This document shows positions 26,651 to 42,206 of a stretch of DNA of 64,000 nucleotides, one piece after another. How positions within the stretch are numbered: the first letter of the stretch is position 1; every line of letters begins with the position of its first letter. Source of the stretch: Candidatus Magasanikiibacteriota bacterium (GTDB taxonomy: Bacteria > Patescibacteriota > Patescibacteriia > Magasanikbacterales > GWA2-37-8); contig JBAYNU010000003.1 of the NCBI GenBank assembly GCA_041678665.1, forward strand, positions 12,008 through 76,007, read 5' to 3'. The notes under the pieces are model-generated. The model saw only the letters and a list, made by a program, of their open reading frames with translations, did no database searches and was not told the origin of the DNA. A program made the position numbers and the translations under genes.

Positions 26651-26725
26651 GCGGGTGTCGTATAATGGCTATTATGTGGCCTTCCCAAGGCTAAGACGAG
26701 GGTTCGATTCCCTTCACCCGCTCCA
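26651..26725 (+). tRNA. tRNA-Gly (anticodon CCC) with encoded CCA
   Basis: Acceptor GCGGGTG/CACCCGC, anticodon loop TTCCCAA, T-loop TTCGATT, 3' TCCA. Confidence 0.75.
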
Positions 26726-28336
26726 AGATGAAAAAACGGTCTGAAAATGACTGTTTTTTCTTTGTAATAAAGCAAAATTCACTGGTTCTGACGCGATAGA
26801 TTTAATTTCTTTGTTTTCGGTAGCTTCTTTAATTGTTAAGAACGGTTTCTTTATTTCAATGTCTAATCGATTATTTTTTAGAATAAAGTGTTGCCCCAAA
26901 GCGCGTAGCAAAATAGTCTTTTGTTCAAAATCAGCTTTCTCAAACCAGTATTTTGCATAGGTAGCAAAATTAAAAGTGCGTTCGGCCAACTCCATCCATT
27001 CATCCATTCTTTCCTCCAAATTCTTTATTACGCCCTCCAAACGAGCCCTCTCTTTCATTAAGGTGTCTTTTTGAGATATAAATAGGTCGTTAGAAATCAG
27101 TTTGCGATCCATATTTTCGGGAGAAATATATAATCTCATTAAATTGTCCAGACTGCCGACACAGGATTTATAATTCTTTTGTTGGTTTTCCAATAATACA
27201 TCACGGTCGTTTTGTTCAAGCTCGTGCTGTTCTCTTAATACCGAAACGCCCCAATGCAAGAATTCTGGCGGAATGGTTATCTTATCAATAAATGAACTCA
27301 CCTGTTCACATAAATCTTCGTGGCGAATACATTTTTGATTACAACTAACGCCTTTTTTATTTTTTGTGCAATGATGATAAATATAATGCCTTACTTTATC
27401 ATTTGTTTTGTTTTTCTTGAACTTTTCCTCGGATGTTATCATTCCGCCACATTCCCCGCATATTATAAGGCCGTTAAAAGGCAACCGTTTAATCTTAGGA
27501 CGGGATTTCCCGTCCCGCCCTAAGATTTTTTGAACCCGATCAAATTCCTCTTGGGTAATCATCGGATCGTGTCGACCTTGGTATACTTCGCCGTTAAATT
27601 CAAATAATCCAAAGTAAAATGGGTTATTAAAAATTTTACAGCCCGTGCTCATACTAATTTTCATTGGCCCCTTACCTTTACGCTGAATGCTTCTAAGCCC
27701 CCATTCATCATTTGCTATCTTTATTACCTGAGGGACTGAATAGTTGCCTGTTAGCAAATAATCCCACATTTTGCGGACTATATGAAAACGATCTGGGTCA
27801 CGAAAAATTTTCTTTTCACCTTTATCCCCGTATTTATCGTTGAGATATCCGAGCGGAGCGGTGTGCGGTCGCCAACCTTTTACAGCCTTAGCCACCATCC
27901 CTCTTTTAACATCTTTACTCAGGTCAATAATATATTGATTGGCCACACCGAACTCAACACCCATAATTAACACATTGTCCGCTGATAAATACTCACGGCC
28001 GACCGTCATAATGGATTTTATGACTCCGCGTTGTAACAACCATTGGATTAAGCCGCCGTCAATCGGGTTGCGTGATAACCTGTTTAGTTTCCAACAGATT
28101 ATTCCGTCAGCTTTGCCCGATTGGATAATATTCATCATTTCATTGAATTCTGGACGCCCGGGCTTTTTAGCCGATTTCGATTCCTCAAAGATTTTTACAA
28201 CATTGAGGCCCTTCTCATTAACCAGCTTCTTTAATTCATTTCGCTGGTCTTTGATTGATTGAATTTGTCTGTCTTCCGAGTCTGTTGACTTGCGACAGTA
28301 GATAATATATCTATTTTTATTTTCTTCTTTATTCAT
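26714..28336 (-). CDS. large serine recombinase (integrase)
   Basis: N-terminal resolvase catalytic motif Y-C-R-K-S-T-D-S-E-D-R-Q, recombinase domain, Cys-rich zinc ribbon (C-G-E-C-G ... H-H-C ... C); last 3 codons overlap tRNA-Gly 3' end. Confidence 0.8.
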   Translation of the reverse strand: MNKEENKNRYIIYCRKSTDSEDRQIQSIKDQRNELKKLVNEKGLNVVKIFEESKSAKKPGRPEFNEMMNIIQSGKADGIICWKLNRLSRNPIDGGLIQWLLQRGVIKSIMTVGREYLSADNVLIMGVEFGVANQYIIDLSKDVKRGMVAKAVKGWRPHTAPLGYLNDKYGDKGEKKIFRDPDRFHIVRKMWDYLLTGNYSVPQVIKIANDEWGLRSIQRKGKGPMKISMSTGCKIFNNPFYFGLFEFNGEVYQGRHDPMITQEEFDRVQKILGRDGKSRPKIKRLPFNGLIICGECGGMITSEEKFKKNKTNDKVRHYIYHHCTKNKKGVSCNQKCIRHEDLCEQVSSFIDKITIPPEFLHWGVSVLREQHELEQNDRDVLLENQQKNYKSCVGSLDNLMRLYISPENMDRKLISNDLFISQKDTLMKERARLEGVIKNLEERMDEWMELAERTFNFATYAKYWFEKADFEQKTILLRALGQHFILKNNRLDIEIKKPFLTIKEATENKEIKSIASEPVNFALLQRKNSHFQTVFSSWSG

Positions 28337-28456
28337 ATTGGTTTATTTTAGATTAATTACAATAATTTTGTTTGACCATTGGGAGGTCATTTGCCCTATT
28401 TTTAGCCCCTTTTATTATATCGTGTTTAACCGTAATCGTAAGCGGCTAAAAAATGG

Positions 28457-28639
28457 CTACGTGTTGGCAACTTGTTGTAGTAATTCATAGTCTTTTTTAA
28501 GCATTGATTTATAGGATATGCGCAAAGCACTAACCAAGGCCTCGCCAAGTTCGATGGCCCTTTCCTCGCCGACATTCAAACCAAATTTGGTTTGAAATAT
28601 TCTGCGGAATTCCTGAATTTTGTCAGAACTTATGCGCAT
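28457..28639 (-). CDS. hypothetical small helical protein (possible regulator/RDF)
   Basis: 60 aa between integrase and replicase; function not supported by motif. Confidence 0.3.
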   Translation of the reverse strand: MRISSDKIQEFRRIFQTKFGLNVGEERAIELGEALVSALRISYKSMLKKDYELLQQVANT

Positions 28640-28677
28640 ACGGTTAATTAATTTCGACCTTTATTTTATATTTTGCT

Positions 28678-30936
28678 TTAATAATTAATTATTTCGTCAT
28701 CGCTAAGAATGCCGACATTTTTGTTTTCGACCTTTATATCCCCAAAATCAACTGGGGAAATTCTTTCAATAATAATTTTTCTCTCCTTGTCTTTTTTGGC
28801 GTAAAATTTCAGACCGGCCTTTTCAAGATTAACAGAAATTATTTTCATCATCCGCAATAGCCGGCTCGGTGTTTGTGGCCATTGCCAATTTTTTTCAATT
28901 TTTATATTCAAATCTAATGCGACAGATTCCATTTCGGACAATAATTCTGACGGCGTATTTTCGATATAATTTGTCCGACCGTCGTTAAACATTTTCAACA
29001 ACACCAATGCGAGCGGACTTTCTTTTATGACCTCATCGTTTTGTTGTTGGAGTTTTTCGGAGTAGGCATCCAAAAATTTTTGTTTTCCGATATTTAATGC
29101 TTCGGCAATGGCGCAACCCCACTCCGCCCAGTCGGCCATCCGCGGTTTTTCTGCAAGCCTTATTTGAGGTTTGATATTAATCGCTTTCACGAGAGTATCA
29201 AAACACGCCCCGAGTATTTTGGGTTTTATGGCATTAAATTGGACTGATAACTCGGATTCTGTTTTTCTTTCCGTTTCAGAGATTCTCTCTAATTCAATAA
29301 GGAGTGAGCGGTCAAGAAGGTCGGGTTTATTTGCCACTACATTGATACCGTTAACGCCGAGGGGAATTTGAATATTATAAATAAAGTCGTCGTCATCCGA
29401 ATATAGAACGCGTTTACTGAATCCTTCTCCTGTGCACGCACGGCAAAATGCGTCACTTAGGTCATTTGACATTTTCGACAAATTATCAAACAGGCAAAGC
29501 CAGTGGTGGGAAGCTATTTGTGTAAATTCGCGGATATTCTCAATCGGGGGCAAGGTTTTGATTGCGGAAGGATCAACCAAACTTTTCATTATTCTGAACA
29601 CCGTGCTTTTGGATGACCCTTGAAGTCCTGATAAAACAATCACAGGATGAGGGAAGCCGCAAATATAGCAGGATAGAAGATAAACCAAAAAAACAATTTG
29701 ATCGTTTTCCTTTTTTAGATTAATGAATTTCAGCAATTCCTCTATATTGCCACCGCGTTCTGGGGCAACTTGCTTTTGTTGATGTCTAAATCGTTTAAAA
29801 AGTATTGGTGGATTCGATACGATTTCCCAACCGGTAGCACTAATTTTTACCGCTTGCTCACCGAGATCAAACCATAAATTATCCTCACAGTGCGCAATGC
29901 GGACATTAAGAAAAATAGGCATTTCTTTTTGGGCTTCCATTCGTAAATGGGCACAGACATTTTCAATCGTATCCTTACCTATCGTTTTGTTGTTGTTCAA
30001 ATAATACTGGCTGAATATCCAATCCTTAAATTCCCTTGAATCAATGGCAATAACTTTTGTGCCGTCGCCGTTAACCGCCGCCCAAGTCGAATTTTTATCA
30101 TCCACAAACACTTTTAACTTTGTTGTTGCCAAGAAATCAATTAATTCAACGGCCTTGCTTTGTCTGCTCTCATCACCGCCTAATTTATCAACGCCGAGTG
30201 GCTGCGGTGATGTTCTCTCTCGTTCGCAAATACTTTCAAAGACAGATCGGAGTTCGTCGTCAGCCAGCGGGGGAGTATTTTTTTGGTTCAATTTTTGTAA
30301 TCTGAACCAGACATCATTCTCCCAAAGCTGTGGAGGAAATCGTTTTAATAATTTTCCAACTATGGAGGCGGCTTGGGTATTTCTTTGGCCTTCTTTCACC
30401 CCATTATTTAATAGGCCACCAAATTCTTTATCTATTTTTCCTTCCGAATCATTACCTTGTAGACTCAAAAGTATCTCTTTGGGCAACTCGGCAATAGGAG
30501 TGGTATCTGGTGAATTTATCCATTCGTATGTTTTTGTAGAATCGATAATTGACGGCGGTGCTACTACACATCTGCCTTCTGCGCGAATATCAATATTCCG
30601 CCATTTCCTGACATCGTTTTTTATTTTTATATTAGGATTTCTGAAATAATAATGACGCCCGTTGTTTCCGGTTTTTGCCGAAACGGTCAACGGTAAATTA
30701 TCTATTCTACCGTTATCGTCGATGTCAATTACGAGTAAATCAGAAATTTGGCCGGTGATAATTATAATATTGGCTTTATTGGAATCAAACCATTGGTGCA
30801 GCTCAATATCTGTCGGTAATTTTGTTTGATACTCTTTCCACGATTTTAACAACGGCTTTTTTTCTCTATCATCACCGGGAACGACAGAAAAACCCATTGC
30901 TACATATTCTTTTGCCACTTCATATTTTGTTTTCAT
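28678..30936 (-). CDS. replication protein: primase-polymerase (prim-pol) N-terminal domain fused to P-loop SF3/D5-like helicase
   Basis: N-terminal bifunctional prim-pol-like region (V-V-P-G-D-D ... I-D-I-D motif) and Walker A G-L-Q-G-S-S-K-S-T at about aa 435. Confidence 0.65.
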   Translation of the reverse strand: MKTKYEVAKEYVAMGFSVVPGDDREKKPLLKSWKEYQTKLPTDIELHQWFDSNKANIIIITGQISDLLVIDIDDNGRIDNLPLTVSAKTGNNGRHYYFRNPNIKIKNDVRKWRNIDIRAEGRCVVAPPSIIDSTKTYEWINSPDTTPIAELPKEILLSLQGNDSEGKIDKEFGGLLNNGVKEGQRNTQAASIVGKLLKRFPPQLWENDVWFRLQKLNQKNTPPLADDELRSVFESICERERTSPQPLGVDKLGGDESRQSKAVELIDFLATTKLKVFVDDKNSTWAAVNGDGTKVIAIDSREFKDWIFSQYYLNNNKTIGKDTIENVCAHLRMEAQKEMPIFLNVRIAHCEDNLWFDLGEQAVKISATGWEIVSNPPILFKRFRHQQKQVAPERGGNIEELLKFINLKKENDQIVFLVYLLSCYICGFPHPVIVLSGLQGSSKSTVFRIMKSLVDPSAIKTLPPIENIREFTQIASHHWLCLFDNLSKMSNDLSDAFCRACTGEGFSKRVLYSDDDDFIYNIQIPLGVNGINVVANKPDLLDRSLLIELERISETERKTESELSVQFNAIKPKILGACFDTLVKAINIKPQIRLAEKPRMADWAEWGCAIAEALNIGKQKFLDAYSEKLQQQNDEVIKESPLALVLLKMFNDGRTNYIENTPSELLSEMESVALDLNIKIEKNWQWPQTPSRLLRMMKIISVNLEKAGLKFYAKKDKERKIIIERISPVDFGDIKVENKNVGILSDDEIINY

Positions 30937-30955
30937 ATTATTTTTTGATTATTTT

Positions 30956-31198
30956 TTATTGGTAGATAAGATTTTTTAATTCTTTGAGTGCGTAGTAAAA
31001 ATTTGTTGGCTCAACACAGACTTGGCGATTGCGGTATTTTTCGATTAAGTCGTTTAGTTTGGCGTCCGCTTCCGTGTAGAATATTGCCCGACCGCCGACC
31101 TTGCGACTAATGTTGATTGACCGTCCCTGTGTATATAGGTAGGCCATTAGGGGTAAGTCAGTTGTCTCAAAGTTTTTGTTTTGTTTCTCAGTATTCAT
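30956..31198 (-). CDS. small hypothetical protein (DUF5659-like pattern)
   Basis: 80 aa; family assignment tentative. Confidence 0.3.
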   Translation of the reverse strand: MNTEKQNKNFETTDLPLMAYLYTQGRSINISRKVGGRAIFYTEADAKLNDLIEKYRNRQVCVEPTNFYYALKELKNLIYQ

Positions 31199-31282
31199 AT
31201 TTGTTAATTTTTATTTTATTTAAGTCTGTAATTAGTGTAATAAAAATTAGACCAACTTATAATTAATCGCGGCTATCTCTTA

Positions 31283-31318
31283 AAAATTAAAAAAACGGCT
31301 TTGTTTAGCCGTTTCTTT
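31283..31318 (-). terminator. hairpin terminator downstream of 31345-32016 gene
   Basis: AAACGGCT-aaacaa-AGCCGTTT followed by T-run on minus strand. Confidence 0.5.
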
Positions 31319-31344
31319 ATGAAGTTACTAACATTGGCCAAAGG

Positions 31345-32016
31345 TTAACCAGAGGTTTCGGTTATATATTCAACATTATAATGTTTATTTATTCTAAAAC
31401 CGCTTGTTCTGCTCTCAACAATAAAATCCTCGGTGTTATCTACTTTTTCTCTAAAATTTTTATTAATTTTCTTAATAGCATTTGATGTAATAATATCTTT
31501 ATTTTTTTCGCTTTTTTGTTTTTGTGTTTTTTTACCGTCCAATTCGTTATATTCTTTGATTTTTTCAATAATGTCTCTAATTCGTAGGGGTTTTGAAGAA
31601 AGAACCAGCGAGCGAACTAGTTGGAATCTATCGCCGCTTACATTATAAATTTTTGTTTCATCGTCTTTTTTATATATACCATTAATATTCGACAATACGA
31701 CGTCGATTATGTCTGGGCTTACTGAGATAAATTGTTTTTTATTATCACCAGTTTCAGTTGACGAATAATAATTTTGAAAATTTTTTCCTTTACCCACCAA
31801 GACATATCTATTCCAATTACTGGGGGCAAAATCGATGACATTAATAATTTTTCTATTATGTAAACTCCGTAAAATTTTGAAGTATAATTTCAGACTAAAT
31901 CCGTCAGGGCAAACATTGTTGGCGTCTAAAATAATTGAATCTTTCCGCTCGGATTCAATGTTTAGTTTTATGTGTTTGATTATATTGTTTTCAACCAAAT
32001 CAATGTCTGTATTCAT
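31345..32016 (-). CDS. hypothetical protein
   Basis: 223 aa, Lys-rich, no motif recognised. Confidence 0.4.
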   Translation of the reverse strand: MNTDIDLVENNIIKHIKLNIESERKDSIILDANNVCPDGFSLKLYFKILRSLHNRKIINVIDFAPSNWNRYVLVGKGKNFQNYYSSTETGDNKKQFISVSPDIIDVVLSNINGIYKKDDETKIYNVSGDRFQLVRSLVLSSKPLRIRDIIEKIKEYNELDGKKTQKQKSEKNKDIITSNAIKKINKNFREKVDNTEDFIVESRTSGFRINKHYNVEYITETSG

Positions 32017-32061
32017 ATTAGTTTCATTTTATATGTATTTTAAGCCATTATCGGCCCGAGG

Positions 32062-32736
32062 TCAACCCTTTGTATCCCCGTATGTGGGGTAATACTTTTC
32101 ACCGTTTTCCATAGTGACCCCGCCGTCCGCGTTTATCATCTCCTGCATTGCTTCGTGTATTTTGTTAAATTGGTCAGGAAATCTTTTCGCAAGTTCCCCC
32201 AAATTGTTTGGATTATCCGGATTGGTCGCGTCTTCATAAGCCCTCAATTGGTCTCCCTGTCCGCCAGCCATTATCTCCTCAATTTTAATAGTGGTTTTGC
32301 TTTTGCTAAGATTCCAACCCTGAATGTCGGCAAAATTTGTTTGCATTCTCTGAAATTTTTCCAAGGCAATCATTTTTTCAAACGGACGCCAATTTTTTGC
32401 CTTATTTTTCTCCGCGATGTGCATAGCCGCTTGCTCAATTACATCTTCCATTTGAGCAATATATACTTCACGCAATCTTTCAAAGTGGTCGCGGCGTTCC
32501 CACTTGTTTGATACCCGATTTTGCCGATAATATTCGGCGATGTCCCTTTCCAATGTTCTGAGGGTAATTTGTCCCCAATGTTTTGCGGAATTTAACCTGT
32601 TAATCTCGGCCAAAATAGATCGCATAGACAGGCCCGCGACTTTAAGGGAAATTTCCATTTCCCTGCGTTCTTCCAGCAAATTCATTGGCACGGGGTTTCT
32701 ACCCGCGTTGGTGGGGGGTAGCGACATTTCCGACAT
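32062..32736 (-). CDS. hypothetical protein
   Basis: 224 aa helical protein; no motif recognised. Confidence 0.4.
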   Translation of the reverse strand: MSEMSLPPTNAGRNPVPMNLLEERREMEISLKVAGLSMRSILAEINRLNSAKHWGQITLRTLERDIAEYYRQNRVSNKWERRDHFERLREVYIAQMEDVIEQAAMHIAEKNKAKNWRPFEKMIALEKFQRMQTNFADIQGWNLSKSKTTIKIEEIMAGGQGDQLRAYEDATNPDNPNNLGELAKRFPDQFNKIHEAMQEMINADGGVTMENGEKYYPTYGDTKG

Positions 32737-32759
32737 AAAATTACTTTATAAAATACATT

Positions 32760-35099: not shown

Positions 35100-36002
35100 T
35101 TAATTATAAGAATTAATGATACCGTCATCGGCACCATAAAAACACATCGGTGTATAACCAGACCAACACCATTGCCACGATCTCCCAGTTCCGTAGTTAG
35201 AAGGATTAGCCGAGCTCGGATTTCCTCGCTCCGATTTTAACATATCCAAACTCATACCAATCCAAATTTCATTATTTGCCAAGCGGTCGCAGGTTGAATG
35301 TCCCCACTCTGGGTGTTTGTTGCATATACGCCCCGCCCTTGAATTATCCCATTCGGCATCCTCTCTACCGATTTTTGCTGATTCTATGTCATCTTTCTGT
35401 TTCTGATTGGTATATTCTTTGTTTGTCATTAACGCGTCGCTCTCTATCCAAGCCACTATTTTCGTGTTGTCTCTATTGGTAGTTTTTATAAGCGATTTGT
35501 TATTGACTGTATCTTCCTCATACACATCCGCTTTAACTCCCGAATCAACAAAATATTCATCGGCATATTCTTTATTTTCGTAATTAGCTAAATCAAATTC
35601 AGAATAAGTATTATCCGGTCCTATCGGATTAATGAATTTATTATTAATGATACTATAAATCACCATTTCTTTTATAGGTTGTTTGCCATTGATGTATTCG
35701 GTAGTAAATTTTATTTTAGAAGCTATATCCGCCTGTCTTTTCGCAATGGATTGCTTTTGAGATTGCTCTTGTTGCGATTGTAGAAATGTAGTTGATATTA
35801 TGCCGATAAACATCATCGTGATCGTTAGCCAAACTAATATGCCAAGTGGTGATTTAAGAGAAAACCACATTTTAAAAGGATTGCTTTTTTCTTTTATTTT
35901 ATTCACCACTGGTTTGGGTGGAATCTGACTTTTACAATGCTTGCAAATAATAGCGTCTGATAAGACTTCTTCGGCGCAGAATGGGCATTTTATGTTTGAC
36001 AT
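35100..36002 (-). CDS. zinc-ribbon/TM-anchored hypothetical protein
   Basis: N-terminal C-P-F-C ... C-K-H-C zinc ribbon, one TM helix, Trp/Cys-rich C-terminal domain. Confidence 0.4.
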   Translation of the reverse strand: MSNIKCPFCAEEVLSDAIICKHCKSQIPPKPVVNKIKEKSNPFKMWFSLKSPLGILVWLTITMMFIGIISTTFLQSQQEQSQKQSIAKRQADIASKIKFTTEYINGKQPIKEMVIYSIINNKFINPIGPDNTYSEFDLANYENKEYADEYFVDSGVKADVYEEDTVNNKSLIKTTNRDNTKIVAWIESDALMTNKEYTNQKQKDDIESAKIGREDAEWDNSRAGRICNKHPEWGHSTCDRLANNEIWIGMSLDMLKSERGNPSSANPSNYGTGRSWQWCWSGYTPMCFYGADDGIINSYN

Positions 36003-36300
36003 AAAAATAAATTAAAAATAAAAATGGACACCCAAGACCTGCGAACTACAAAGGTGTCCCGAGAGACGCCGTTTGTGTTTGGTCTGGGTGCCCATTCCAA
36101 TACACAAACGACAAAGCGGTTAAGCTTTTTGCTTCTCTCGGTAATAATATCTTGTAGTTCGCAGGGTTATTATAGGCCAAACGGGGTAAAAAGTAAATAG
36201 GGGTAAATATAAAATGAATTTTATATTGTTAAAAATGCTAATTATAGGCAAAAATTCAATATTTTTAAATAGGATTGTCAATGTTGTTAACAGTCGGCAG

Positions 36301-36329
36301 TTGACATAGTTTGGGTTATCGGCTATACT
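36301..36329 (+). promoter_or_regulatory. consensus sigma70 promoter with overlapping short inverted repeat
   Basis: TTGACA - 17 nt - TATACT; TGTCA ... GTTAAC ... TGACA arrangement 36276-36306. Confidence 0.55.
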
Positions 36330-36371
36330 GATATAAATAGTTTCATTATTTATATCAAATTCACATAACTT

Positions 36372-36599
36372 ATGTCAGAAATAAAAGAAGAAAACAGATC
36401 AGCTCGCTTTAAGCGAGTTGCGGAACGCAGAACAAAAGCGGTTTTGCGGTCTATTCGAATTTTGGGTAATTGTTCAAATAAAAGCGCCTATCAATACTCG
36501 GACGAAGAAATAGCCAAAATTTTTAAGGCTATTGAAGATCAAATACGTTTAACCAAGGCTCGATTTCAAAAATCGAAAAATATTAAATTTACCCTATAA
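36372..36599 (+). CDS. hypothetical small protein (operon gene 1)
   Basis: 75 aa, basic/helical. Confidence 0.4.
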   Translation: MSEIKEENRSARFKRVAERRTKAVLRSIRILGNCSNKSAYQYSDEEIAKIFKAIEDQIRLTKARFQKSKNIKFTL

Positions 36600-36602
36600 T
36601 TT

Positions 36603-37220
36603 ATGACAAATAATTTAGCAGGCCTGTCGCGAGCAGAAAAAATTATACTTGTGATGTATAAGATGAGTGAGGGGACAAAAAAAAATTTGAAATACGAGGA
36701 CATTGTGGTCGGTGCATTTAAGATGTTTGCCGAAAATTTTCATTTGAGAGGATACTCTGAATATCCCGATTCTGGGGACTTAGTTCATAAACCACTGTAT
36801 GATTTTAGAAAAAAAGGATTAATAGAAGCTAATAATAAAGTTTTTTCCTTAACCGATCGCGGAATATCCTTTGCAGAACAAGTTGAAATACAAGCAAGCG
36901 GGAAACAAGTTGGTTACAGCGGAAGGTTGTCCAGATTCACGGAAAAGGAAGTGGCGCGTATTGAGACGACGGAAGGATTCCAACTTTTCGTTGATGGCAA
37001 AACAGATAAAATTACGGACACCGATTTTTTTAACTACATTGGGGTAACTCCGCGCACATCAAAAAATGATTTCCTCGGGCGTTTTGATACGGTATGTAGT
37101 GCCGTTGAAGAATTAAATAATCAAAAAAATTTACCATTTATTCGCGAAAAAATTGATCCCTACCATAAATTTATGCTTGAAAAATTTCAAAGTATAATAT
37201 CACATTATCAAACTAAATAA
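36603..37220 (+). CDS. hypothetical protein (operon gene 2), possible N-terminal winged helix
   Basis: 205 aa; 3-nt gap from gene 1. Confidence 0.4.
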   Translation: MTNNLAGLSRAEKIILVMYKMSEGTKKNLKYEDIVVGAFKMFAENFHLRGYSEYPDSGDLVHKPLYDFRKKGLIEANNKVFSLTDRGISFAEQVEIQASGKQVGYSGRLSRFTEKEVARIETTEGFQLFVDGKTDKITDTDFFNYIGVTPRTSKNDFLGRFDTVCSAVEELNNQKNLPFIREKIDPYHKFMLEKFQSIISHYQTK

Positions 37221-37232
37221 CTTCCCTTTACT

Positions 37233-39335
37233 ATGAAAATGAATATGAAACAAAAAAATATTACCATTATTGAAGAACCAAACGTGATAGATGACCATTT
37301 ATTAGATATTATCGGCAACGAATTTAAGTTCGACCACGAAAAAGGAATTGCAGAGTGGATAAAAAATTCAAAAGACGCATATACAAGGTCCGACTTGCCG
37401 GATTCAGAACAAAACATAATATTACGCTTTGTAGACGGAAAACAAGACGACGCTGCTTTTGAATGTATTGATTTTGTTGGTATGAGTGATACGGATATTG
37501 ATAAAGCATTTAAGAGATGGGGTGACCCGGAAGCTGCAAAACGTGGTTTGAAAAAGAGAGTATATGGCGGTCACGGAAATGGCGGAAAATTTTATATGCG
37601 CCAGATGTTTGAGAAATCTCATTTTGTAACCTATAAAGACGGCAAGATCAACATTTTTGGTTTTAATGAAAACCGTAAATACGGTTTCGCTGACGGTTTT
37701 AAGAATAAGAAAGCCAACCCCAAAGAAGCATTTTCTATTGCTAATATCGAAGACTTAAATTTTCCCAAGGGAGTCAAAGAACAGATTGTGGAAGGTAAGA
37801 TTGGTTTTACCGTGGTTAGAGGAATCGGTCCGTCAAAAATGAAAAATAATATTAAATTTGATAAGTTGGTTGAAAAATTAAAAAATCATCCGCAGGCGCG
37901 TCGCATATTAATTCGAATTAGTGTATGGGCCAGCCACAATAATTTTTCTGACGCTACACTTCTTAAACCCGACGACATTAAACCGCTTCCAAATTTTGAA
38001 AAGCCGTATTTTGTTGAAATACCGTCGGTTATTGAGATAATTGAAAGCGGAGAGAAAAATTCGGTAGAAATGGCAAATGCAAAATATCAAGTTGGAAATT
38101 TGGTGTTAAAAACTTCCGAAGAGGCATTCGGTAAGGGCAGCCGGGTAGCCGATCTGAACAGGGTTGATATAATAGGTGAGGTAGGAGTTATAGCTTCATA
38201 TCAATTTTTTGAATTGGGGGTGACCGCATTCCCGCAAGCTTCATTTATTTATGGTGAATGTGAGTGTCCGATATTGGAAGATTCTGAAATGGACGCCGTA
38301 AAGAACGATCGCTCAAAACTTGTAGAAAATAATGTGCGTGCGGTTGCTCTCTTGGGTTGGTTGAGGGAGCAAGTTGATAAATACGCAAACTCAATTGCCG
38401 CATTGGAGAAAAAAGAACAAGAGGTTCAACGAAGACAAATATCGGCTGCTTATAATGATTTTTTGAATAAATGGAAAGATAGGTTTATGTCCAAATTTAT
38501 GGGAGATTTATTCAAAAGCGGCGGTGGTGCTGGCGGCGGAAATAACGATGAGGGAGGGGTTAAGAGAAAAATATTAGAATTACCCAAGGATGGTTTTGCT
38601 TTTAGTTATCCCTATGCTGAAATACAAAATAGCCTTGAAGAGAGGATCACGTTAAAAGCGTCCGTCCCTAATCCAATTCCGCTCGGAAGTATTATAAAAA
38701 TAGAGGCGTCTTCAAATAATATCATCGTTAGTGAACAAAAAATTACAATAAAAGCGGAAAATATAAAAACAACGCCGTCCGGAGACACGGTTGCAGTTAT
38801 AAACTTTATTGTTATTGGTAAAAAAGTTGGAGAAGAGGCGCAACTTATCGCTACCGTCGGTAAATTAAGCACCGAAATGACCGTTAAAACCATTGAAGCT
38901 ACGGGGAAAGATAAAGGTAAGAACCCTAAAACTCCGCAAGTTTTGCTCTCGGGAATACACCCGGATCCATTAATGATAAATCCCGGGGAACAATCGGTTA
39001 TATTGTCCGAACGTGATCCGTTAGTTTACCAACGGTATCAGGATGTGCAAGAAGGGATTTATTGGATCAATACGCAAAGTCCTTTGGCCAAGGCGATACT
39101 TGATAGATATACTGATAATTCAATAAGATGGCGGGATTATCTTTTTCAAAGATATGTTGACATTTTTGTCAAACAAATGCTGCACGAATTGCAAAAAAGA
39201 GATTCGGAAAATTTTCGAGCAGATAGGGTCGACAGCGAACTGGATGAATTAACAAGAAAAGTCCATTTTGCGGCCATTAACGACCTCAACCAATTTTTCT
39301 TTGAGGAAGACTTTACGCCGGTCGAAAAATTATGA
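37233..39335 (+). CDS. GHKL-type (histidine kinase/HSP90/MORC-like) ATPase domain protein
   Basis: N-box E-W-I-K-N-S-K-D-A, G1 I-D-F-V-G-M-S, G2 G-G-H-G-N-G-G-K within first 130 aa; 700 aa total; remainder unassigned. Confidence 0.55.
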   Translation: MKMNMKQKNITIIEEPNVIDDHLLDIIGNEFKFDHEKGIAEWIKNSKDAYTRSDLPDSEQNIILRFVDGKQDDAAFECIDFVGMSDTDIDKAFKRWGDPEAAKRGLKKRVYGGHGNGGKFYMRQMFEKSHFVTYKDGKINIFGFNENRKYGFADGFKNKKANPKEAFSIANIEDLNFPKGVKEQIVEGKIGFTVVRGIGPSKMKNNIKFDKLVEKLKNHPQARRILIRISVWASHNNFSDATLLKPDDIKPLPNFEKPYFVEIPSVIEIIESGEKNSVEMANAKYQVGNLVLKTSEEAFGKGSRVADLNRVDIIGEVGVIASYQFFELGVTAFPQASFIYGECECPILEDSEMDAVKNDRSKLVENNVRAVALLGWLREQVDKYANSIAALEKKEQEVQRRQISAAYNDFLNKWKDRFMSKFMGDLFKSGGGAGGGNNDEGGVKRKILELPKDGFAFSYPYAEIQNSLEERITLKASVPNPIPLGSIIKIEASSNNIIVSEQKITIKAENIKTTPSGDTVAVINFIVIGKKVGEEAQLIATVGKLSTEMTVKTIEATGKDKGKNPKTPQVLLSGIHPDPLMINPGEQSVILSERDPLVYQRYQDVQEGIYWINTQSPLAKAILDRYTDNSIRWRDYLFQRYVDIFVKQMLHELQKRDSENFRADRVDSELDELTRKVHFAAINDLNQFFFEEDFTPVEKL

Positions 39336-40423
39336 ATTTTGAAGGAAACATAATAAACATCGTCTGTGAAAATTACGGGGTTAACAAAGAGGCCGTTTTT
39401 GCACAGGACAGGCAACAAAACATTGCGGAAGTCAGGATGGTTCTTGCCTATTGTTTAAGGTTGGTTGAAAATTTATCTTTTCCGGCAATAGGAAAAATTA
39501 TCGGTAATAGGGATCACACCACGATGATGCACTCTTGTAGTAGGATTGCCAAAAAAATTGAACAAGACAAAAAATTTGCCGTCAGAATCAAATTAATTAT
39601 CGATAAGATTTTGGCTAATAGATATAATGAGGTAGCCAAACCAAAAGTTAATCCGATAGAAATTAATATTGGTGAAGATGAAGAAGAGTCAGAACCAGAA
39701 CCAGATTTGAATTATTATGTGGTGCCTTATGAAAATGAAAAGTTAGAATTATCAGATAGAGAAAGGGGTATTTTAATACGATATCGAAACGGCGAAACTC
39801 TGAGAAAAATAGGTCAAACGGAAAAAGTCACGACACAGCGTATTAGCCAAATAATCATCAAAGCGGTTACCAAGGAAGTTAAAGCAAAAATAAGGGAGGG
39901 ATTTGATATTGATATTGAAGAATCTATAAAAGGCGAAAAAATTGCTCATAATTTTAATTTATCTAAAAAAATATCTGACGAAGATGTTAGAAAACTTACC
40001 CCGGAATTTATATTAAGAGTTGGCAGCGGCACCCAAATAAAAGCCTTGGCAAAAGAAGTCGGACTGTCGGTATCAAAATTTAATAAATTCTTCCCCGAAG
40101 TGTTAGAAGAAGCCGATAATAAAAAAAGACGAGAAAAACAACGATGGACAAAATATTATATTAGTTGTAGGGGGTGCGGAACCACCAAAATACCACACGT
40201 AAAAAAAGGGTATTGTGAGCAATGCCTTGGTGTTTTTCGCGGGAAGAGAAGAGATTCGGTATTGAAGAATAAAAATAAATGCGAAGTATGTAGTATTGAA
40301 CGCGGGAAAGCGATACAAAAGTATAAGAAAGATTTCTATATTACTAAGGACGGACGGGTATTGTGTCGCAATTGTTTTTTACAATTAACCGGCGATAAGC
40401 TTGCGTCAAGCAGGTGGAAATAA
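39332..40423 (+). CDS. DnaA C-terminal (domain IV)-like DNA-binding protein with sigma-70 region-4-like HTH and C-terminal zinc ribbons
   Basis: N-terminal matches DnaA domain IV (L-x-x-x-S-F-P-A-I-G-K-I-I-G-N-R-D-H-T-T-M-M-H-S-C-S-R-I); E-T-L-R-K-I-G-Q-T-E-K-V-T-T-Q-R-I-S-Q-I HTH; C-R-G-C-G ... C-E-Q-C ... C-E-V-C ... C-R-N-C; start overlaps upstream stop (ATGA). Confidence 0.55.
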   Translation: MNFEGNIINIVCENYGVNKEAVFAQDRQQNIAEVRMVLAYCLRLVENLSFPAIGKIIGNRDHTTMMHSCSRIAKKIEQDKKFAVRIKLIIDKILANRYNEVAKPKVNPIEINIGEDEEESEPEPDLNYYVVPYENEKLELSDRERGILIRYRNGETLRKIGQTEKVTTQRISQIIIKAVTKEVKAKIREGFDIDIEESIKGEKIAHNFNLSKKISDEDVRKLTPEFILRVGSGTQIKALAKEVGLSVSKFNKFFPEVLEEADNKKRREKQRWTKYYISCRGCGTTKIPHVKKGYCEQCLGVFRGKRRDSVLKNKNKCEVCSIERGKAIQKYKKDFYITKDGRVLCRNCFLQLTGDKLASSRWK

Positions 40424-40434
40424 ATCGAAATAAA

Positions 40435-41394
40435 TTAATGATTTGCCCCTGTTTCAAGTATTTTACGCACTTTCTTAGCGACTGCCGCAGCCACATTTAC
40501 GGTTACGGCATTACCCAATTGCTGATACGCTCTGGTTATAGAAACAGGCCACTTGTATTTTTCAGGAAACCCTTGTAACCGCGCACATTCCTTAACCGTC
40601 ATTCTTCTAATCCCAAATTTATTTTTCTTAACCGGCCTGTCTTTTATTAAGTTCCTTTCACGGCCCATATTCCCCGCTACCAATGTATTAGAGATGCCAC
40701 CAACATCCAAGATTTGACATCCAAATCCGCTGCCTTTTTTCTCGTGCCGTTTTTTGTGTTTAAGTAAACCCTTGTAGTATTTTTGTGACAGATAATAGAA
40801 TTCATCAATGTCTTTTTCTAAGATGTCAGAAAGAGCAACCGGTTTACAATGGGGTTTAGGGAATTCAAAATCTATACTGTGATCCAAAAAACCAACTATA
40901 TATAGCCGTTCTCTGTGCTGCGGAACGCCAAAGTTTTTCGAATCTAATACGGCTTCTTTTACGCGATACCCGGCCCACTCCAAGTTTTGTTTTAGTCGTT
41001 CATATACCTTGCCCTTGTCATAAAGGCGAAGGTGTTTAACATTTTCTAAAACAAAAGCCCGCGGTTGTTTTGCGGCCAAAATTCGGATGATATGAAAAAA
41101 CGCTTTGGCGCGATCATCGTTAAGCCCTTTTCGTTTCCCTATCATTGAAAATGGCTGGCAGGGAAAGCCGCCCAATAAAATATCAAAATCTGGTATAATA
41201 TCGGTATTGATATTCTTTATGTCATTTTGATCAATGTCACCAAAATTAGCCCTGTATGTCTTACAAGCGTTCGGATCCAAGTCGTTTGAGTAAACAACCT
41301 GAAATCCAGCCTTTTCAAATCCCATCCTCATACCCCCGATTCCGGCGAATAGATCAATGACTTTGAATTTGTTTTTTTTGTTATTTTTCCCCAT
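40435..41394 (-). CDS. DNA (cytosine-5)-methyltransferase
   Basis: Motif I F-A-G-I-G-G, motif IV G-F-P-C-Q-P-F-S, motif VI E-N-V-K-H-L. Confidence 0.8.
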   Translation of the reverse strand: MGKNNKKNKFKVIDLFAGIGGMRMGFEKAGFQVVYSNDLDPNACKTYRANFGDIDQNDIKNINTDIIPDFDILLGGFPCQPFSMIGKRKGLNDDRAKAFFHIIRILAAKQPRAFVLENVKHLRLYDKGKVYERLKQNLEWAGYRVKEAVLDSKNFGVPQHRERLYIVGFLDHSIDFEFPKPHCKPVALSDILEKDIDEFYYLSQKYYKGLLKHKKRHEKKGSGFGCQILDVGGISNTLVAGNMGRERNLIKDRPVKKNKFGIRRMTVKECARLQGFPEKYKWPVSITRAYQQLGNAVTVNVAAAVAKKVRKILETGANH

Positions 41395-41442
41395 AAAACC
41401 TGTTGAACAGTTTGATTATATCATAGATTGTAATTTTAGTAT

Positions 41443-42066
41443 ATGCGTAAATTTGGCCTTCACGATAACCTAACGGATAAAGAAAAGCGGCTTATTAGGA
41501 CGCTGAGACGGCAAGTATTGTCTTGGGCTAAGTCCCAAGATGTATTTTATTATTGGCGAAAAAAGCCGACCGCATACTCAATATTAATGGCCGAGTTGCT
41601 ATTACAAAGGACAAGGGCTCAACAAGCGGAAAAGCAGTTTATTATTTATATGAAAAAATATCCAACCTTTTCAAAATTACAAAAGGCAAAGAAAAGTGGT
41701 TTGTCTAAAATATTTCGACCGTTAGGTTTAGAAAAACGAGTAAATACAGTCACTACCCTCGTTAAAGTGATAAATAAAAATTATAACGGCGATATACCCA
41801 AAAAATATGAAGACTTGATGAAACTACCCGGAGTCGGTGATTATATAGCAAATGCCGTAATGATTTTTGCTCTTAATCGCCCCGGGTGGTTGGTAGATGT
41901 AAATATTATAAAGGTGTTTTCGGATTTGTTCGGGTTGAATATTAGCCGTGAGGAGGGTAAAAAATCAAAATTTATTAAAGAATGTTCTAAATATTTTACA
42001 TCGCTCGGCAATCCGCGTAAATCAAATTGGAATTTATTGGATTATGCGATGAAGAATGGGGGATAA
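41443..42066 (+). CDS. HhH-GPD family DNA glycosylase (EndoIII/MutY/Mig-like, short form)
   Basis: L-P-G-V-G-D-Y-I-A-N-A-V helix-hairpin-helix followed by V-D-V-N-I-I-K-V catalytic-Asp region; no C-terminal 4-Cys cluster. Confidence 0.6.
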   Translation: MRKFGLHDNLTDKEKRLIRTLRRQVLSWAKSQDVFYYWRKKPTAYSILMAELLLQRTRAQQAEKQFIIYMKKYPTFSKLQKAKKSGLSKIFRPLGLEKRVNTVTTLVKVINKNYNGDIPKKYEDLMKLPGVGDYIANAVMIFALNRPGWLVDVNIIKVFSDLFGLNISREEGKKSKFIKECSKYFTSLGNPRKSNWNLLDYAMKNGG

Positions 42067-42206
42067 TATTCGTTGGGGTTCTAACCGGTTTTTTCCAACA
42101 GGCCAAATAACCAAATAACAACATAAAAGGCCCGAAATTGATTTTCAGGCCTTTTACCCAAATAACCCCTGCGGGGTCAAACAAATATTATTAACTAAAC
42201 GGTAAA

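What the first reader, a model, noticed from the sequence alone, without database searches (positions are those of the whole stretch)
26714..42100. Island 1 has phage-satellite/PICI-like organisation (int - small ORF - prim-pol/helicase - accessory defence-like genes) in a CPR-type genome
Gene order follows the canonical satellite layout: integrase next to a tRNA, a 60-aa candidate regulator/RDF, a 752-aa prim-pol + SF3/D5 helicase replicase, then a block of accessory genes. The accessory block holds two C5-MTases, a ParB-like nuclease, a GHKL ATPase operon and an HhH-GPD glycosylase. No capsid, terminase or tail genes are evident. All structural-looking candidates are unannotated hypothetical proteins. 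Self-replicating integrative elements of this kind are poorly described in Patescibacteria.
Basis: inference. Interest (0 to 1): 0.65.

Follow-up and report, generated by a model that had tools for sequence, protein, structure and literature searches.

The report
Serine-recombinase replicative island at tRNA-Gly
This is a real 15.6-kb mobile element in a Magasanikbacteria (CPR) genome that cuts itself in at the very end of a glycine tRNA gene, carries its own DNA replicase and restriction-modification-type cargo, and has just jumped between two different host genomes; whether it rides in a helper phage's particles (a true "satellite") is not shown.

Summary
The "integrase" is a large serine recombinase (LSR). 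Only the Prim-Pol/PriCT-1 half of the replicase is confirmed. The true limits are 26726-42292, not 26714-42100.

Mobility is demonstrated. The same element, with 0 mismatches, lies in a second genome of about 47-48% GC (the window host is about 39%). There it sits at tRNA-Gly(UCC) instead of tRNA-Gly(CCC). Both junctions fit a single 2-nt crossover, the CA of the tRNA's encoded CCA end. In three relatives of the host, tRNA-Gly and tRNA-Thr lie 15-138 nt apart, so the site is empty there.

The Rep-LSR core defines a family found in about 80 mostly Patescibacteria species genomes. In 27 of 44 Rep-LSR loci the LSR gene runs antisense into a tRNA gene.

The cargo is:
- an orphan C5-methyltransferase plus a ParB-like gene;
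- a conserved CPR cassette of 75 aa, 205 aa, a 700-aa GHKL/HgiDII-like protein, a DnaA-HTH protein, a C5-methyltransferase and an HhH-GPD glycosylase.

No capsid, large terminase, tail or conjugation genes were found. A small terminase (TerS) is recognisable in only four relatives. The positional analogue here, the 224-aa protein, has a TerS-like fold only at non-significant scores. The PICI/PLE-like layout is therefore supported, but satellite status is unproven (about 0.3).

The parts
26651..26725 (+). tRNA-Gly(CCC), the integration target (B arm of attL). The crossover dinucleotide is CA at 26724-26725, the end of the encoded CCA. The tRNA stays intact after insertion.
   Evidence: ARAGORN and Rfam. 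The first mismatch between the window and the second context is at 26715. The junction logic is set out in the full report.
26726..42292 (.). The mobile element proper, 15,567 nt, 37.9% GC.
   Evidence: 0 mismatches to L001 over 40936-26716 and to L005 over 31443-42292, with divergence immediately outside. GC.
26730..26760 (+). Hairpin followed by a T-run in the P' arm. It is placed directly behind the tRNA by integration and is a possible replacement terminator for the tRNA gene.
   Evidence: Terminator-like site, 12 pairs. The function is inferred.
26714..28336 (-). Large serine recombinase, 540 aa. Its last four codons (W S G stop) lie in the antisense of the tRNA. In the excised form a TGA made at the junction would end it at 537 aa.
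   Evidence: Pfam; PHROG 95 integrase 5.8e-70; NCBIfam XisF/Ccr-like matches below cut-off; translation.
28457..28639 (-). 60-aa protein between the replicase and the recombinase. It is a candidate accessory factor or RDF; function unknown.
   Evidence: No family match. Weak homologues in 7 related loci.
28678..30936 (-). Replicase: Prim-Pol + PriCT-1 + C-terminal P-loop NTPase domain.
   Evidence: The N-terminus resembles pRN1 ORF904 (1rni, profile E 2.8e-10). 58 homologues.
30956..31198 (-). DUF5659 small protein, a conserved partner directly upstream of Rep.
   Evidence: Pfam 1e-10. Found in the same position in 23 related loci.
31345..32016 (-). 223-aa protein of unknown function, 29% GC. 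No homologue in any related locus.
32062..32736 (-). 224-aa backbone protein: an N-terminal three-helix HTH-like bundle plus a long helical hairpin. It is a candidate DNA-binding or small-terminase-like protein.
   Evidence: 119 representative homologues; none has a Pfam hit. AF2 pLDDT 83.8. The best named Foldseek neighbours are small terminases at non-significant E. hhalign against Terminase_2 relatives is negative. Same position in L196 and next to Rep in L037.
32760..33731 (-). C5 cytosine DNA methyltransferase 1, with no adjacent nuclease gene recognised.
   Evidence: PF00145 2.9e-62. The gene start is as called in public contigs.
33733..34395 (-). ParB-N-like protein with a C-terminal zinc ribbon.
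   Evidence: PHROG 620 3.2e-21. PADLOC MTase_II matches the N-terminal part, 4.4e-13.
34420..34896 (-). 158-aa protein of unknown function, first gene of the leftward backbone operon.
   Evidence: No matches. A 12/12 consensus promoter lies at 35089-35060. A 156-aa ORF occupies the same position in L196.
35100..36002 (-). 300-aa protein with an N-terminal zinc ribbon, one predicted membrane-spanning segment and a C-terminal region predicted to lie outside the cell.
   Evidence: PHROG hits to the zinc-ribbon part only. Sequence read.
36003..36371 (.). Divergent promoter region between the leftward (backbone) and rightward (cassette) genes.
   Evidence: Promoter-like sites on the plus strand at 36301-36329 (11/12) and on the minus strand at 36269-36241 and 36197-36169. 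These are consensus matches only.
36372..40423 (+). Four-gene operon: 75 aa, 205 aa, a 700-aa GHKL-like/HgiDII-like protein, and a 363-aa protein with a DnaA C-terminal HTH, sigma-70 region 4 and zinc ribbons.
   Evidence: The same cassette occurs in L111-L115.
40435..41394 (-). C5 cytosine DNA methyltransferase 2, convergent with the operon. It is part of the conserved cassette.
   Evidence: PF00145 2.9e-90. Same arrangement in L111-L115.
41443..42066 (+). HhH-GPD glycosylase-type protein, the likely T:G mismatch repair partner of the C5-methyltransferase.
   Evidence: HHH 3.9e-08 and HhH-GPD 8e-06. PADLOC REase_II 'nicking endonuclease' 9.1e-24. Also present in L111.
42250..42292 (.). P arm of attR, ending in the CA core at 42291-42292. 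The host B' arm starts at 42293, 74 nt before tRNA-Thr(CGT) at 42367-42440.

Best explanation
Window 26726-42292 is an active integrative, self-replicating mobile element of Patescibacteria.

Shown:
- It has exact ends.
- The identical element occupies two different tRNA-Gly genes in two genomes of different base composition.
- Both pairs of junctions are explained by one 2-nt crossover, the CA of the tRNA's CCA end. This is the signature of a serine recombinase, which needs no long repeat. The tRNA stays intact.
- The host site is empty in relatives.

Inferred:
- The large serine recombinase excises the element as a circle and re-inserts it.
- The Prim-Pol/PriCT-1/P-loop protein, with its DUF5659 partner, replicates the circle.
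- The backbone operon (158 aa, ParB-like, C5-methyltransferase, 224 aa, 223 aa) protects and handles the element's DNA.
- The rightward cassette is a restriction-modification-type defence cargo: 75 aa, 205 aa, the 700-aa GHKL/HgiDII-like protein and the DnaA-HTH protein, plus the convergent C5-methyltransferase and the HhH-GPD mismatch glycosylase.

The element has no virion genes and no conjugation genes, so it must leave the cell by a borrowed route. Packaging by a helper phage (a PICI/PLE-type satellite) is one candidate. Natural transformation or vesicles is the other. Neither is shown.
For: Identity and ends:
- L001 (ENA ERZ27249449 k141_857685) matches window 40936-26716 with 0 mismatches and differs from 26715 onward.
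- L005 (Logan SRR6484324_73941) matches 31443-42292 with 0 mismatches and differs from 42293.
- The left neighbour is tRNA-Gly(CCC) in the window and tRNA-Gly(UCC) in L001.
- Flank GC is 0.47-0.48 in the second context and 0.38-0.40 in the window.
- Each context is seen in two independent assemblies.

Empty site:
- Relatives keep the order rotamase, tRNA-Gly(CCC), tRNA-Thr(CGT), FtsE, FtsX.
- The Gly-Thr gap is 15, 110 and 138 nt in L121, L119 and L117, against 15,641 nt here.

Enzymes:
- LSR domains and the catalytic serine motif.
- Prim-Pol and PriCT-1.

Family:
- Rep homologues occur in 80 species genomes, mostly Patescibacteria.
- 44 of 98 loci have an LSR just downstream of Rep. In 27 of these a tRNA gene overlaps the LSR 3' end in antisense.
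- DUF5659 lies upstream of Rep in 23 loci, and cargo is variable.
- L196 has the same backbone order.

No structural or conjugation genes.

Cargo cassette:
- It is conserved in other LSR elements.
- 9 of 32 members of the 700-aa family touch the BbrUII/HgiDII restriction-enzyme model.
Against: - No excised circle (attP junction) was found. The P' arm has 0 matches in the JGI metagenome and IMG/VR collections. Excision is therefore inferred from the two insertions.
- Replication is inferred from domains only. No origin or iterons were seen.
- The C-terminal domain of Rep is not shown to be a helicase.
- The restriction role of the 700-aa protein rests on matches far below the family cut-off (best 4.4e-05; 14.9 bits against 550 for the window protein).
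- Both contexts come from metagenome assemblies, so a chimeric join cannot be excluded absolutely. Two assemblers agree for each context.
Confidence: 0.85

Rival explanations
1. It is a true phage satellite of PICI/PLE type. A helper phage of the Magasanikbacteria host induces excision. The element replicates with its own Prim-Pol replicase, and its DNA is packaged into helper capsids. The 224-aa HTH-plus-hairpin protein would act as a small-terminase-like packaging specificity factor.
For: - Size is 15.6 kb, with integrase, replicase and cargo modules and no structural genes.
- The element is 100% identical in two hosts that differ by 8-9 GC points. This needs an efficient cell-to-cell route, and no conjugation genes are present.
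- Four distinct relatives carry a Terminase_2 small-terminase gene without a large terminase. It sits two or three genes upstream of Rep: L009 (53 bits, 7.5e-14), L013, L029 and L082.
- L013 also has an HTH_3 gene facing divergent small ORFs, like a lysogeny switch.
- The best named structural neighbours of the 224-aa model are small terminases: G20c 6ejq_F and 4xvn_C, and a BFVD TerS.
- PLEs show that LSR-based satellites exist (PMC6002521).
Against: - The Foldseek matches are not significant (E 0.13-0.97, TM 0.2-0.4). hhalign of the 224-aa family against the Terminase_2 relatives gives probability 1%.
- No member of the 224-aa family has a Pfam hit, and none was found in IMG/VR.
- Ten position-analogous proteins from relatives have no PHROG terminase hit.
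- No repressor, AlpA, capsid-size or cos/pac feature was identified here.
- No helper phage is known, and the element was not found in viral contigs.
Confidence: 0.3
2. It is an integrated plasmid-like or tycheposon-like replicative island. It spreads without virions, by natural transformation (CPR bacteria commonly carry competence and pilus genes; this rests on my own knowledge) or by vesicles. The LSR captures the incoming circle at tRNA-Gly.
For: - The core is only Rep plus a recombinase plus small proteins across about 90 loci. 19 loci use a tyrosine integrase instead, and cargo is highly variable.
- The C-terminal half of Rep is shared with Streptomyces, cyanobacterial and Methanothrix plasmids.
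- The N-terminus resembles the pRN1 plasmid replicase.
- Most relatives lack any recognisable packaging gene.
- Tycheposons show the same logic of tRNA target, replication module and cargo (10.1101/2020.12.28.424599).
Against: - No free circular or plasmid contig of the element was recovered.
- No partition or copy-control genes were found apart from a ParB-N-like protein.
- Small-terminase genes in four relatives are hard to explain for a pure plasmid.
Confidence: 0.45
3. It is a defective prophage, or a small novel virus whose capsid proteins are among the unannotated ORFs (223, 158, 300 and 205 aa).
For: - About 1,280 aa of coding capacity has no assigned function.
- The 300-aa protein is membrane-anchored.
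- The helicase half of Rep occurs in bona fide phage contigs that carry TerL.
Against: - No PHROG or Pfam structural hit for any ORF.
- The unassigned ORFs are too few and too short for a tailed-phage morphogenesis module.
- The family's conserved core contains no candidate capsid family.
- The two copies are identical and intact, so this is not a decaying remnant.
Confidence: 0.05
4. It is not mobile: an ordinary variable genomic island or an assembly artefact.
For: The Gly-Thr interval is a plasticity hot spot that holds unrelated surface-protein genes in L118 and L120.
Against: The same 15.6 kb with 0 mismatches lies at another tRNA-Gly in a genome of different GC, with base-exact ends and a consistent 2-nt crossover. 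Each context appears in two independent assemblies.
Confidence: 0.02

Closest known systems
[quoted passage not shown]
   Same: - Island of about 15-18 kb.
- Integrated by a large serine recombinase.
- Has its own replication initiator.
- No virion genes.
- Anti-phage role.
   Different: - PLEs insert in Vibrio cholerae repeats, not tRNA genes.
- PLE RepA is unrelated to this Prim-Pol replicase.
- PLE excision depends on the helper ICP1 protein PexA. No helper is known here.
- No sequence relationship was tested beyond the shared LSR superfamily.
PICIs / SaPIs
   Same: - Size class.
- Integrase at one end.
- Primase-type replicase.
- Accessory and defence cargo.
- Absence of structural and lysis genes.
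- A small terminase without a large terminase in four relatives of this element.
   Different: - PICIs use tyrosine integrases.
- PICIs have a master repressor with divergent transcription (Stl/Str or AlpA).
- PICIs have a defined packaging-interference module.
- None of these three features was found here, and the recombinase is the last gene of the replicase operon.
Tycheposons of Prochlorococcus (10.1101/2020.12.28.424599)
   Same: - tRNA-gene targets.
- Replication genes (primase/helicase).
- Modular cargo or PICI-like variants.
- Host with a small streamlined genome lacking classical transfer systems.
- A minority carry a large serine recombinase.
   Different: - 910 of 937 tycheposons and cryptic elements use tyrosine recombinases and leave partial-tRNA direct repeats. 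Here the crossover is 2 nt at the CCA end and no repeat is left.
- The phylum and the replicase family differ.
SCCmec / SCC elements (PMC7581432)
   Same: - Large serine recombinases insert the element at the extreme 3' end of a conserved housekeeping gene without inactivating it.
- The element encodes a primase/polymerase-helicase pair.
- No transfer genes.
   Different: - The target is rlmH, not a tRNA.
- Two Ccr recombinases are usual.
- The cargo is antibiotic resistance.
- The NCBIfam Ccr models are matched only far below their cut-offs.
pRN1-family plasmids and their integrative or satellite relatives in Sulfolobus (ORF904 replicase)
   Same: The N-terminal Prim-Pol + PriCT-1 module resembles ORF904 (1rni and 3m1m, profile E about 1e-10). 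It is followed by an NTPase domain.
   Different: - Those are archaeal plasmids.
- The similarity covers only about 100 residues.
- Their integration, where present, uses tyrosine recombinases.

Membership tests
Large serine recombinase (serine integrase) elements | Recombinase with an N-terminal resolvase catalytic domain holding the serine nucleophile, plus a recombinase domain and a zinc-ribbon/coiled-coil domain. | tested here: met
   PF00239 3e-20, PF07508 2.8e-08 and PF13408 1.6e-07. Motif YCRKST at residues 13-18.
Large serine recombinase (serine integrase) elements | attL and attR share only a 2-nt crossover core, with no long direct repeats. | tested here: met
   The two host contexts fix the ends. 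Only CA (26724-25 and 42291-92) satisfies both junctions. No long direct repeat flanks the element.
Large serine recombinase (serine integrase) elements | Recombination between attP and attB is catalysed by the encoded enzyme. | not testable with these tools
   Needs an in vitro or in vivo recombination assay.
PICI (phage-inducible chromosomal island) | Island of about 10-20 kb with an integrase, site-specifically inserted. | tested here: met
   15,567 nt, with exact att ends at tRNA-Gly. The integrase is of the serine type, not the tyrosine type.
PICI (phage-inducible chromosomal island) | Own replication module (primase/replicase plus ori). | tested here: inconclusive
   The replicase is present. 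No iterons or ori were recognised.
PICI (phage-inducible chromosomal island) | Master repressor or AlpA-type regulator with divergent control region. | tested here: not met
   No HTH_3, cI, Stl or AlpA match in any ORF. A divergent promoter region exists at 36003-36371, but it separates backbone from cargo. HTH_3 genes do occur in 13 relatives.
PICI (phage-inducible chromosomal island) | Packaging or capsid-redirection genes (TerS, Cpm, Ppi or Rpp) or a helper-type cos/pac site. | tested here: inconclusive
   No sequence match was found. The 224-aa model's best neighbours are small terminases, but at E 0.13-0.97. hhalign against family TerS genes is negative. Terminase_2 is present in four relatives.
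PICI (phage-inducible chromosomal island) | Absence of phage structural and lysis genes. | tested here: met
   Pfam, PHROGs and NCBIfam are negative for all ORFs.
PICI (phage-inducible chromosomal island) | Induction, packaging and transfer by a helper phage. | not testable with these tools
   No helper is known. The element is absent from IMG/VR by exact P'-arm search.
Tycheposon-like tRNA-targeting replicative elements | Integration at a tRNA gene, flanked by a full and a partial tRNA copy. | tested here: not met
   The target is a tRNA gene, but no partial tRNA copy lies at the distal end. The crossover is at the CCA end.
Tycheposon-like tRNA-targeting replicative elements | tRNA-specific tyrosine recombinase clade. 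| tested here: not met
   The recombinase is a large serine recombinase.
Ordinary (tailed) prophage | Large terminase, portal, major capsid and tail genes inside the att boundaries. | tested here: not met
   None was found. TerL appears only in distant viral contigs that share the helicase half of Rep.
Integrative conjugative or mobilisable element | Relaxase, coupling protein or type IV secretion genes, or an oriT. | tested here: not met
   No such Pfam or NCBIfam match in any ORF. oriT was not tested.
Type II restriction-modification with C5-methyltransferase and mismatch-repair partner (BbrUII/HgiDII-like) | C5-methyltransferase next to a cognate endonuclease that reaches the family threshold. 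| tested here: inconclusive
   The methyltransferase is clear (2.9e-90). The 700-aa protein and 9 of 32 homologues touch NF050001, best 4.4e-05. The window protein scores 14.9 bits against a cut-off of 550. Gene linkage is conserved in L111-L115.

The most novel reading that the evidence does not exclude
The element represents an undescribed, widespread family of Patescibacteria phage satellites. Their core is DUF5659, a Prim-Pol replicase and a large serine recombinase. The recombinases have specialised on the 3' ends of tRNA genes, with the recombinase reading frame running antisense into the tRNA. The family would shuttle a CPR-specific GHKL/HgiDII-like restriction-modification cassette between species inside helper-phage capsids. 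The 224-aa family would be a new class of small terminase.
Probability: 0.2. Interest if true: 0.8.

Novelty: new variant of a known kind. Interest (0 to 1): 0.6.

Why it matters
Patescibacteria have tiny genomes and few known routes of gene exchange. Here is a base-exact, recently active element that moved between two species. It comes with a family-wide pattern: a replicase plus a serine recombinase locked onto tRNA 3' ends.

It offers three things:
- A concrete vehicle for horizontal transfer of defence genes in CPR.
- A ready-made attP/attB/recombinase set, useful as a possible genetic tool for organisms that have none.
- A testable candidate for the first CPR phage satellite.

The conserved six-gene cassette, with more than 800 homologues of the 700-aa protein and no annotation, is a candidate new restriction-type system.

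Tried and rejected
- **Long direct repeats as att sites.** None flank the element. This is explained by the serine-recombinase mechanism.
- **Excised form.** Exact search for the P' arm in the JGI metagenome contigs and IMG/VR gave 0 hits. The ENA and Logan samples that hold the element cannot be searched by DNA pattern. The recombinase cluster look-up gave only an unrelated 51-aa fragment, P0064, which cost one look-up for nothing.
- **PHROG scan of ten position-analogous proteins from relatives.** No terminase hit.
- **SF3/D5 assignment of the Rep C-terminus.** Only P-loop matches were found.
- **PADLOC.** No known defence system was matched beyond methyltransferase and nicking-endonuclease models.
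- **PDB profile for the 700-aa family.** Nothing meaningful.
- **Insertions at the same Gly-Thr site in L118 and L120.** These are surface-protein genes, not related elements.
- **Contig breaks at the left junction in Logan assemblies** (L002 ends at 26699, L004 at 26725, L003 at 26734). They hint at population heterogeneity but were judged too ambiguous to use as evidence.

Full report
**1. What is in the sequence**

Between tRNA-Gly(CCC) (26651-26725, plus strand) and tRNA-Thr(CGT) (42367-42440, plus strand) lie 16 convincing ORFs.

Leftward genes, in map order from the tRNA:
- A 540-aa large serine recombinase: Resolvase, Recombinase and Zn_ribbon_recom domains, PHROG 95 'integrase' 5.8e-70, motif YCRKST.
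- A 60-aa ORF.
- A 752-aa Prim-Pol + PriCT-1 protein. Its C-terminal half carries a Walker A motif but matches no helicase family.
- A DUF5659 protein.
- Two unknown proteins of 223 and 224 aa.
- A C5-methyltransferase.
- A ParB-N-like protein (PHROG 620, 3.2e-21).
- An unknown 158-aa protein.
- A 300-aa protein with a zinc ribbon and a membrane-spanning segment.

From a divergent promoter-like region (36003-36371) a rightward operon encodes:
- Proteins of 75 and 205 aa.
- A 700-aa protein with a sub-threshold HATPase_c_3 match.
- A 363-aa protein with a DnaA C-terminal HTH and sigma-70 region 4.

This operon is followed by a convergent C5-methyltransferase and an HhH-GPD protein. The HhH-GPD protein also hits PADLOC's 'Type II nicking endonuclease' model at 9e-24.

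Nothing matches capsid, portal, large or small terminase, tail, lysis, relaxase or secretion families. NCBI names the replicase and recombinase as proteins of Candidatus Magasanikbacteria MAGs. Three points need correcting: the type of integrase, the unproven SF3/D5 label, and the right-hand limit.

**2. The element is mobile, and its ends are exact**

An exact-protein look-up found the same replicase on contigs from other samples.

- In ENA ERZ27249449 k141_857685 (L001), the sequence matches the window without a single mismatch from 40936 down to 26716. The first difference is at 26715. Beyond that point L001 has tRNA-Gly(UCC), then tRNA-Gly(GCC), a sigma factor and a MacB-type transporter. 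The window has tRNA-Gly(CCC) and the rotamase.
- On the other side, Logan SRR6484324_73941 (L005) matches the window without mismatch from 31443 to 42292 and diverges at 42293 into unrelated genes (ComM-like, signal peptidase II, DksA-like).
- The flanks of this second context have 47-48% GC. The window's flanks have 38-40% and the element 37.9%. The two hosts are therefore different organisms.
- Each context is seen in two independent assemblies.

The junctions read:
- attL: ..CACCCGCTC-CA-AGATGAAAAAACGG..
- attR: ..CACAAAGCAGCT-CA-TTGTAAGAGACCC.. in the window
- attR: ..CAGCT-CA-CGGCACCACTGCC.. in the second context

I tried every alternative register. Only a crossover at CA reproduces both observed junctions. 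This CA is the last two bases of the tRNA's encoded CCA. A 2-nt core with no flanking repeat is what a serine recombinase produces (established knowledge of this enzyme class).

Consequences of this geometry:
- The tRNA is left intact.
- The element places a hairpin followed by a T-run directly behind the tRNA (26730-26760).
- The recombinase ORF ends four codons into the antisense tRNA: WSG-TGA here and WSG-TAA in L001.
- In the excised circle the ORF would stop at a TGA created at the junction, giving 537 aa. This is read directly from the sequence.

**3. The site is empty in relatives**

Orthologues of the flanking rotamase (46-54% identity) from metagenome contigs keep this gene order: Mur ligase, 210-aa protein, DivIC, rotamase, tRNA-Gly(CCC), tRNA-Thr(CGT), FtsE, FtsX.

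| Locus | Distance from tRNA-Gly to tRNA-Thr |
|---|---|
| L121 | 15 nt |
| L119 | 110 nt |
| L117 | 138 nt |
| L122 | 424 nt |
| L120 | about 3.0 kb |
| L118 | about 6.8 kb |
| Window | 15,641 nt |

Clean excision would leave 74 nt in the window. The insertions in L118 and L120 are unrelated surface-protein genes, so the interval is also a general plasticity spot.

**4. It belongs to a large family**

Full-length replicase homologues (34-43% identity) occur in 80 GTDB species-representative genomes. These are overwhelmingly Patescibacteria: Parcubacteria groups, Saccharibacteria, Peribacteria/Peregrinibacteria and Magasanikbacteria. A few are in Nitrospira, Chloroflexi and other phyla.

My own ORF clustering of these loci shows:
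- 44 of 98 loci have a large serine recombinase immediately downstream of Rep on the same strand.
- In 27 of those, a tRNA gene on the opposite strand overlaps the recombinase 3' end by 12-163 nt. The tRNAs are Gln, Glu, Asn, Lys, Leu, Gly, Ala, Asp, Met, Arg and Thr.
- 19 loci carry a tyrosine integrase instead.
- A DUF5659 protein precedes Rep in 23 loci.
- HTH_3 regulators occur in 13 loci.
- Everything else is variable cargo, for example N6/N4 and HsdM methylases and, in L011, an OLD-TOPRIM plus UvrD pair (Gabija-like by my reading).
- L196 repeats the window's backbone order: 156 aa, 220 aa, C5-methyltransferase, 224-aa homologue, 317 aa, DUF5659, Rep, 67 aa, recombinase.

In IMG/VR only the helicase half of Rep is found, sometimes on contigs with a large terminase, which are real phages.

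I found no description of this family in four literature searches. The library is incomplete, so this is weak evidence of novelty.

**5. The cargo**

The 700-aa protein has more than 800 homologues. The best 120 are 49-74% identical, 642-716 aa long (nearly all 681-716 aa), nearly all from CPR, and all unannotated.

In two other, independent genomic contexts the same cassette recurs: a 73-76-aa protein, a 204-210-aa protein, a 693-704-aa protein, a DnaA-HTH protein, a convergent C5-methyltransferase, and sometimes HhH-GPD. In both contexts a different serine recombinase lies nearby and no Rep is present (L111-L115).

Nine of 32 family members touch NCBIfam's BbrUII/HgiDII restriction-enzyme model in a collinear region around the invariant G-E-C-E-C-P..L-E-D motif. 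The best E is 4.4e-05, far below the family cut-off.

I read the cassette as a restriction-modification-type system with a T:G-mismatch repair partner. This is an inference, not a membership claim. The other C5-methyltransferase, with its ParB-N-like neighbour, resembles the self-protective methylases of phages and plasmids (PHROG 116 and 620).

**6. Is it a satellite?**

In favour:
- The size, the modules and the lack of virion and conjugation genes.
- Recent transfer between species.
- Four relatives carry a Terminase_2 small-terminase gene without a large terminase, a few genes upstream of Rep. L009 scores 53 bits against a cut-off of 26.1. The others are L013, L029 and L082.

The window's positional analogue is the 224-aa protein. 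It founds a family of 119 representatives with no Pfam match. With 85 sequences AlphaFold gives a confident model (pLDDT 83.8): a three-helix N-terminal bundle and a long helical hairpin. The best named Foldseek neighbours in both PDB and BFVD are small terminases. These include G20c 6ejq_F at E 0.43, 4xvn_C at 0.97, a BFVD 'Terminase small subunit' at 0.13, and Sf6 gp1 further down. None is significant. Profile comparison with the family's Terminase_2 proteins is negative.

Against:
- No repressor, helper, packaged form or circle was found.
- The gene order, with the recombinase as the last gene of the replicase operon, is not the PICI order.

I put the satellite reading at about 0.3. A plasmid-like or tycheposon-like island using transformation or vesicles is at about 0.45. 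A cryptic virus is at about 0.05. The statement common to all of these is held at 0.85: an active, serine-recombinase-driven, replicase-bearing integrative element that targets the CCA end of tRNA-Gly.

**7. Comparison and novelty**

It works like PLEs and SCC elements in using a serine recombinase with its own replication proteins and no transfer genes. SCC elements also insert at the 3' end of a housekeeping gene. It works like tycheposons in its tRNA targets and its replication-plus-cargo design in a streamlined genome.

It is not a member of any of these:
- PICI hallmarks (repressor, packaging module, tyrosine integrase) are not met or are inconclusive.
- Tycheposon hallmarks (tyrosine recombinase clade, partial-tRNA repeats) are not met.

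I rate it a new variant of a known kind.

The most interesting points are:
- the base-exact CCA-end crossover used on two tRNA-Gly isoacceptors;
- the family-wide antisense overlap of recombinase gene and tRNA;
- the inter-species identity;
- the unannotated CPR-wide cassette.

Noticed in passing
window 47000-52521: A second island has the same geometry. A serine recombinase (50882-52462, plus strand; 28% identical to the first over 500 aa) has a 3' end that overlaps tRNA-Gln(CTG) (52450-52521, minus strand) by 13 nt. The island carries HEPN_Cthe2314, DUF6996/6997, an N6/N4 methylase, DUF5655 and an HTH gene, but no replicase. A perfect 113-nt inverted repeat (47050-47162 / 50777-50889) brackets the cargo. 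A 77-nt inverted repeat (50884-50960 / 52377-52453, 98.7%) sits at both ends of the recombinase gene. This may be an invertible segment.
   Followed up: partly
window 36372-42066; L111 8142-13753; L113 8150-13083: A conserved six-gene cassette: about 75 aa, about 205 aa, about 700 aa GHKL/HgiDII-like, a DnaA-HTH/sigma-r4 protein, a convergent C5-methyltransferase, with or without HhH-GPD. It is found across many CPR lineages. The 700-aa protein has more than 800 homologues, none annotated. It is a candidate uncharacterised restriction-type system that travels on different recombinase-bearing elements.
   Followed up: partly
L009, L011, L013, L021, L023, L025, L030, L035, L036, L039, L040, L046, L049, L050, L053, L055, L060, L064, L066, L069, L073, L076, L077, L087, L088, L091: In 27 Rep-recombinase loci (two of them duplicates of the same contig) the serine-recombinase ORF runs antisense into a tRNA gene by 12-163 nt, often about 40 nt. 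With overlaps that long, the elements must either carry the tRNA 3' half inside the recombinase gene or change the recombinase C-terminus on integration. The crossover points were not mapped.
   Followed up: no
window 42555-42581: A degenerate copy (81%) of the 3' end of tRNA-Thr(CGT) (42416-42442) lies 139 nt downstream of that tRNA. It may be the scar of an older integration at tRNA-Thr. In relatives L120 and L122 the Thr-FtsE interval holds about 4 kb of extra genes.
   Followed up: partly
L118 2411-9171; L120 7217-10202: In two relatives of the host, the same tRNA-Gly/tRNA-Thr interval holds cell-surface genes instead of a mobile element: an ice-binding-like protein, a sortase, HYR/Ig-like giant proteins and a CAP-domain protein. 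The interval is a general plasticity hot spot.
   Followed up: yes
L011 1-8695: A Saccharibacteria relative of the element carries an OLD-TOPRIM ATPase plus UvrD helicase pair (Gabija-like by my reading), a 1080-aa helicase/MTES_1575 protein, and a Pfam-recognised HATPase_c_3 gene next to a homologue of the window's 75-aa protein.
   Followed up: no
L002, L003, L004 (Logan contigs): Logan contigs stop at or next to the left junction, at window positions 26699, 26734 and 26725. The last is exactly the crossover base. This may reflect mixed occupied and empty sites in the populations, but it is ambiguous.
   Followed up: no
window 7853-7937: ARAGORN reports a tRNA of undetermined identity with an odd anticodon loop. 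Rfam also scores it as a tRNA at 49 bits.
   Followed up: no
L121 9116-9187; L119 1247-1318: In these relatives the orthologous tRNA-Gly(CCC) gene lacks an encoded CCA (it ends ..GCTCAAA). The window and L117 encode CCA. Since the crossover here is the CA of CCA, presence of an encoded CCA may decide whether a genome can be targeted.
   Followed up: no
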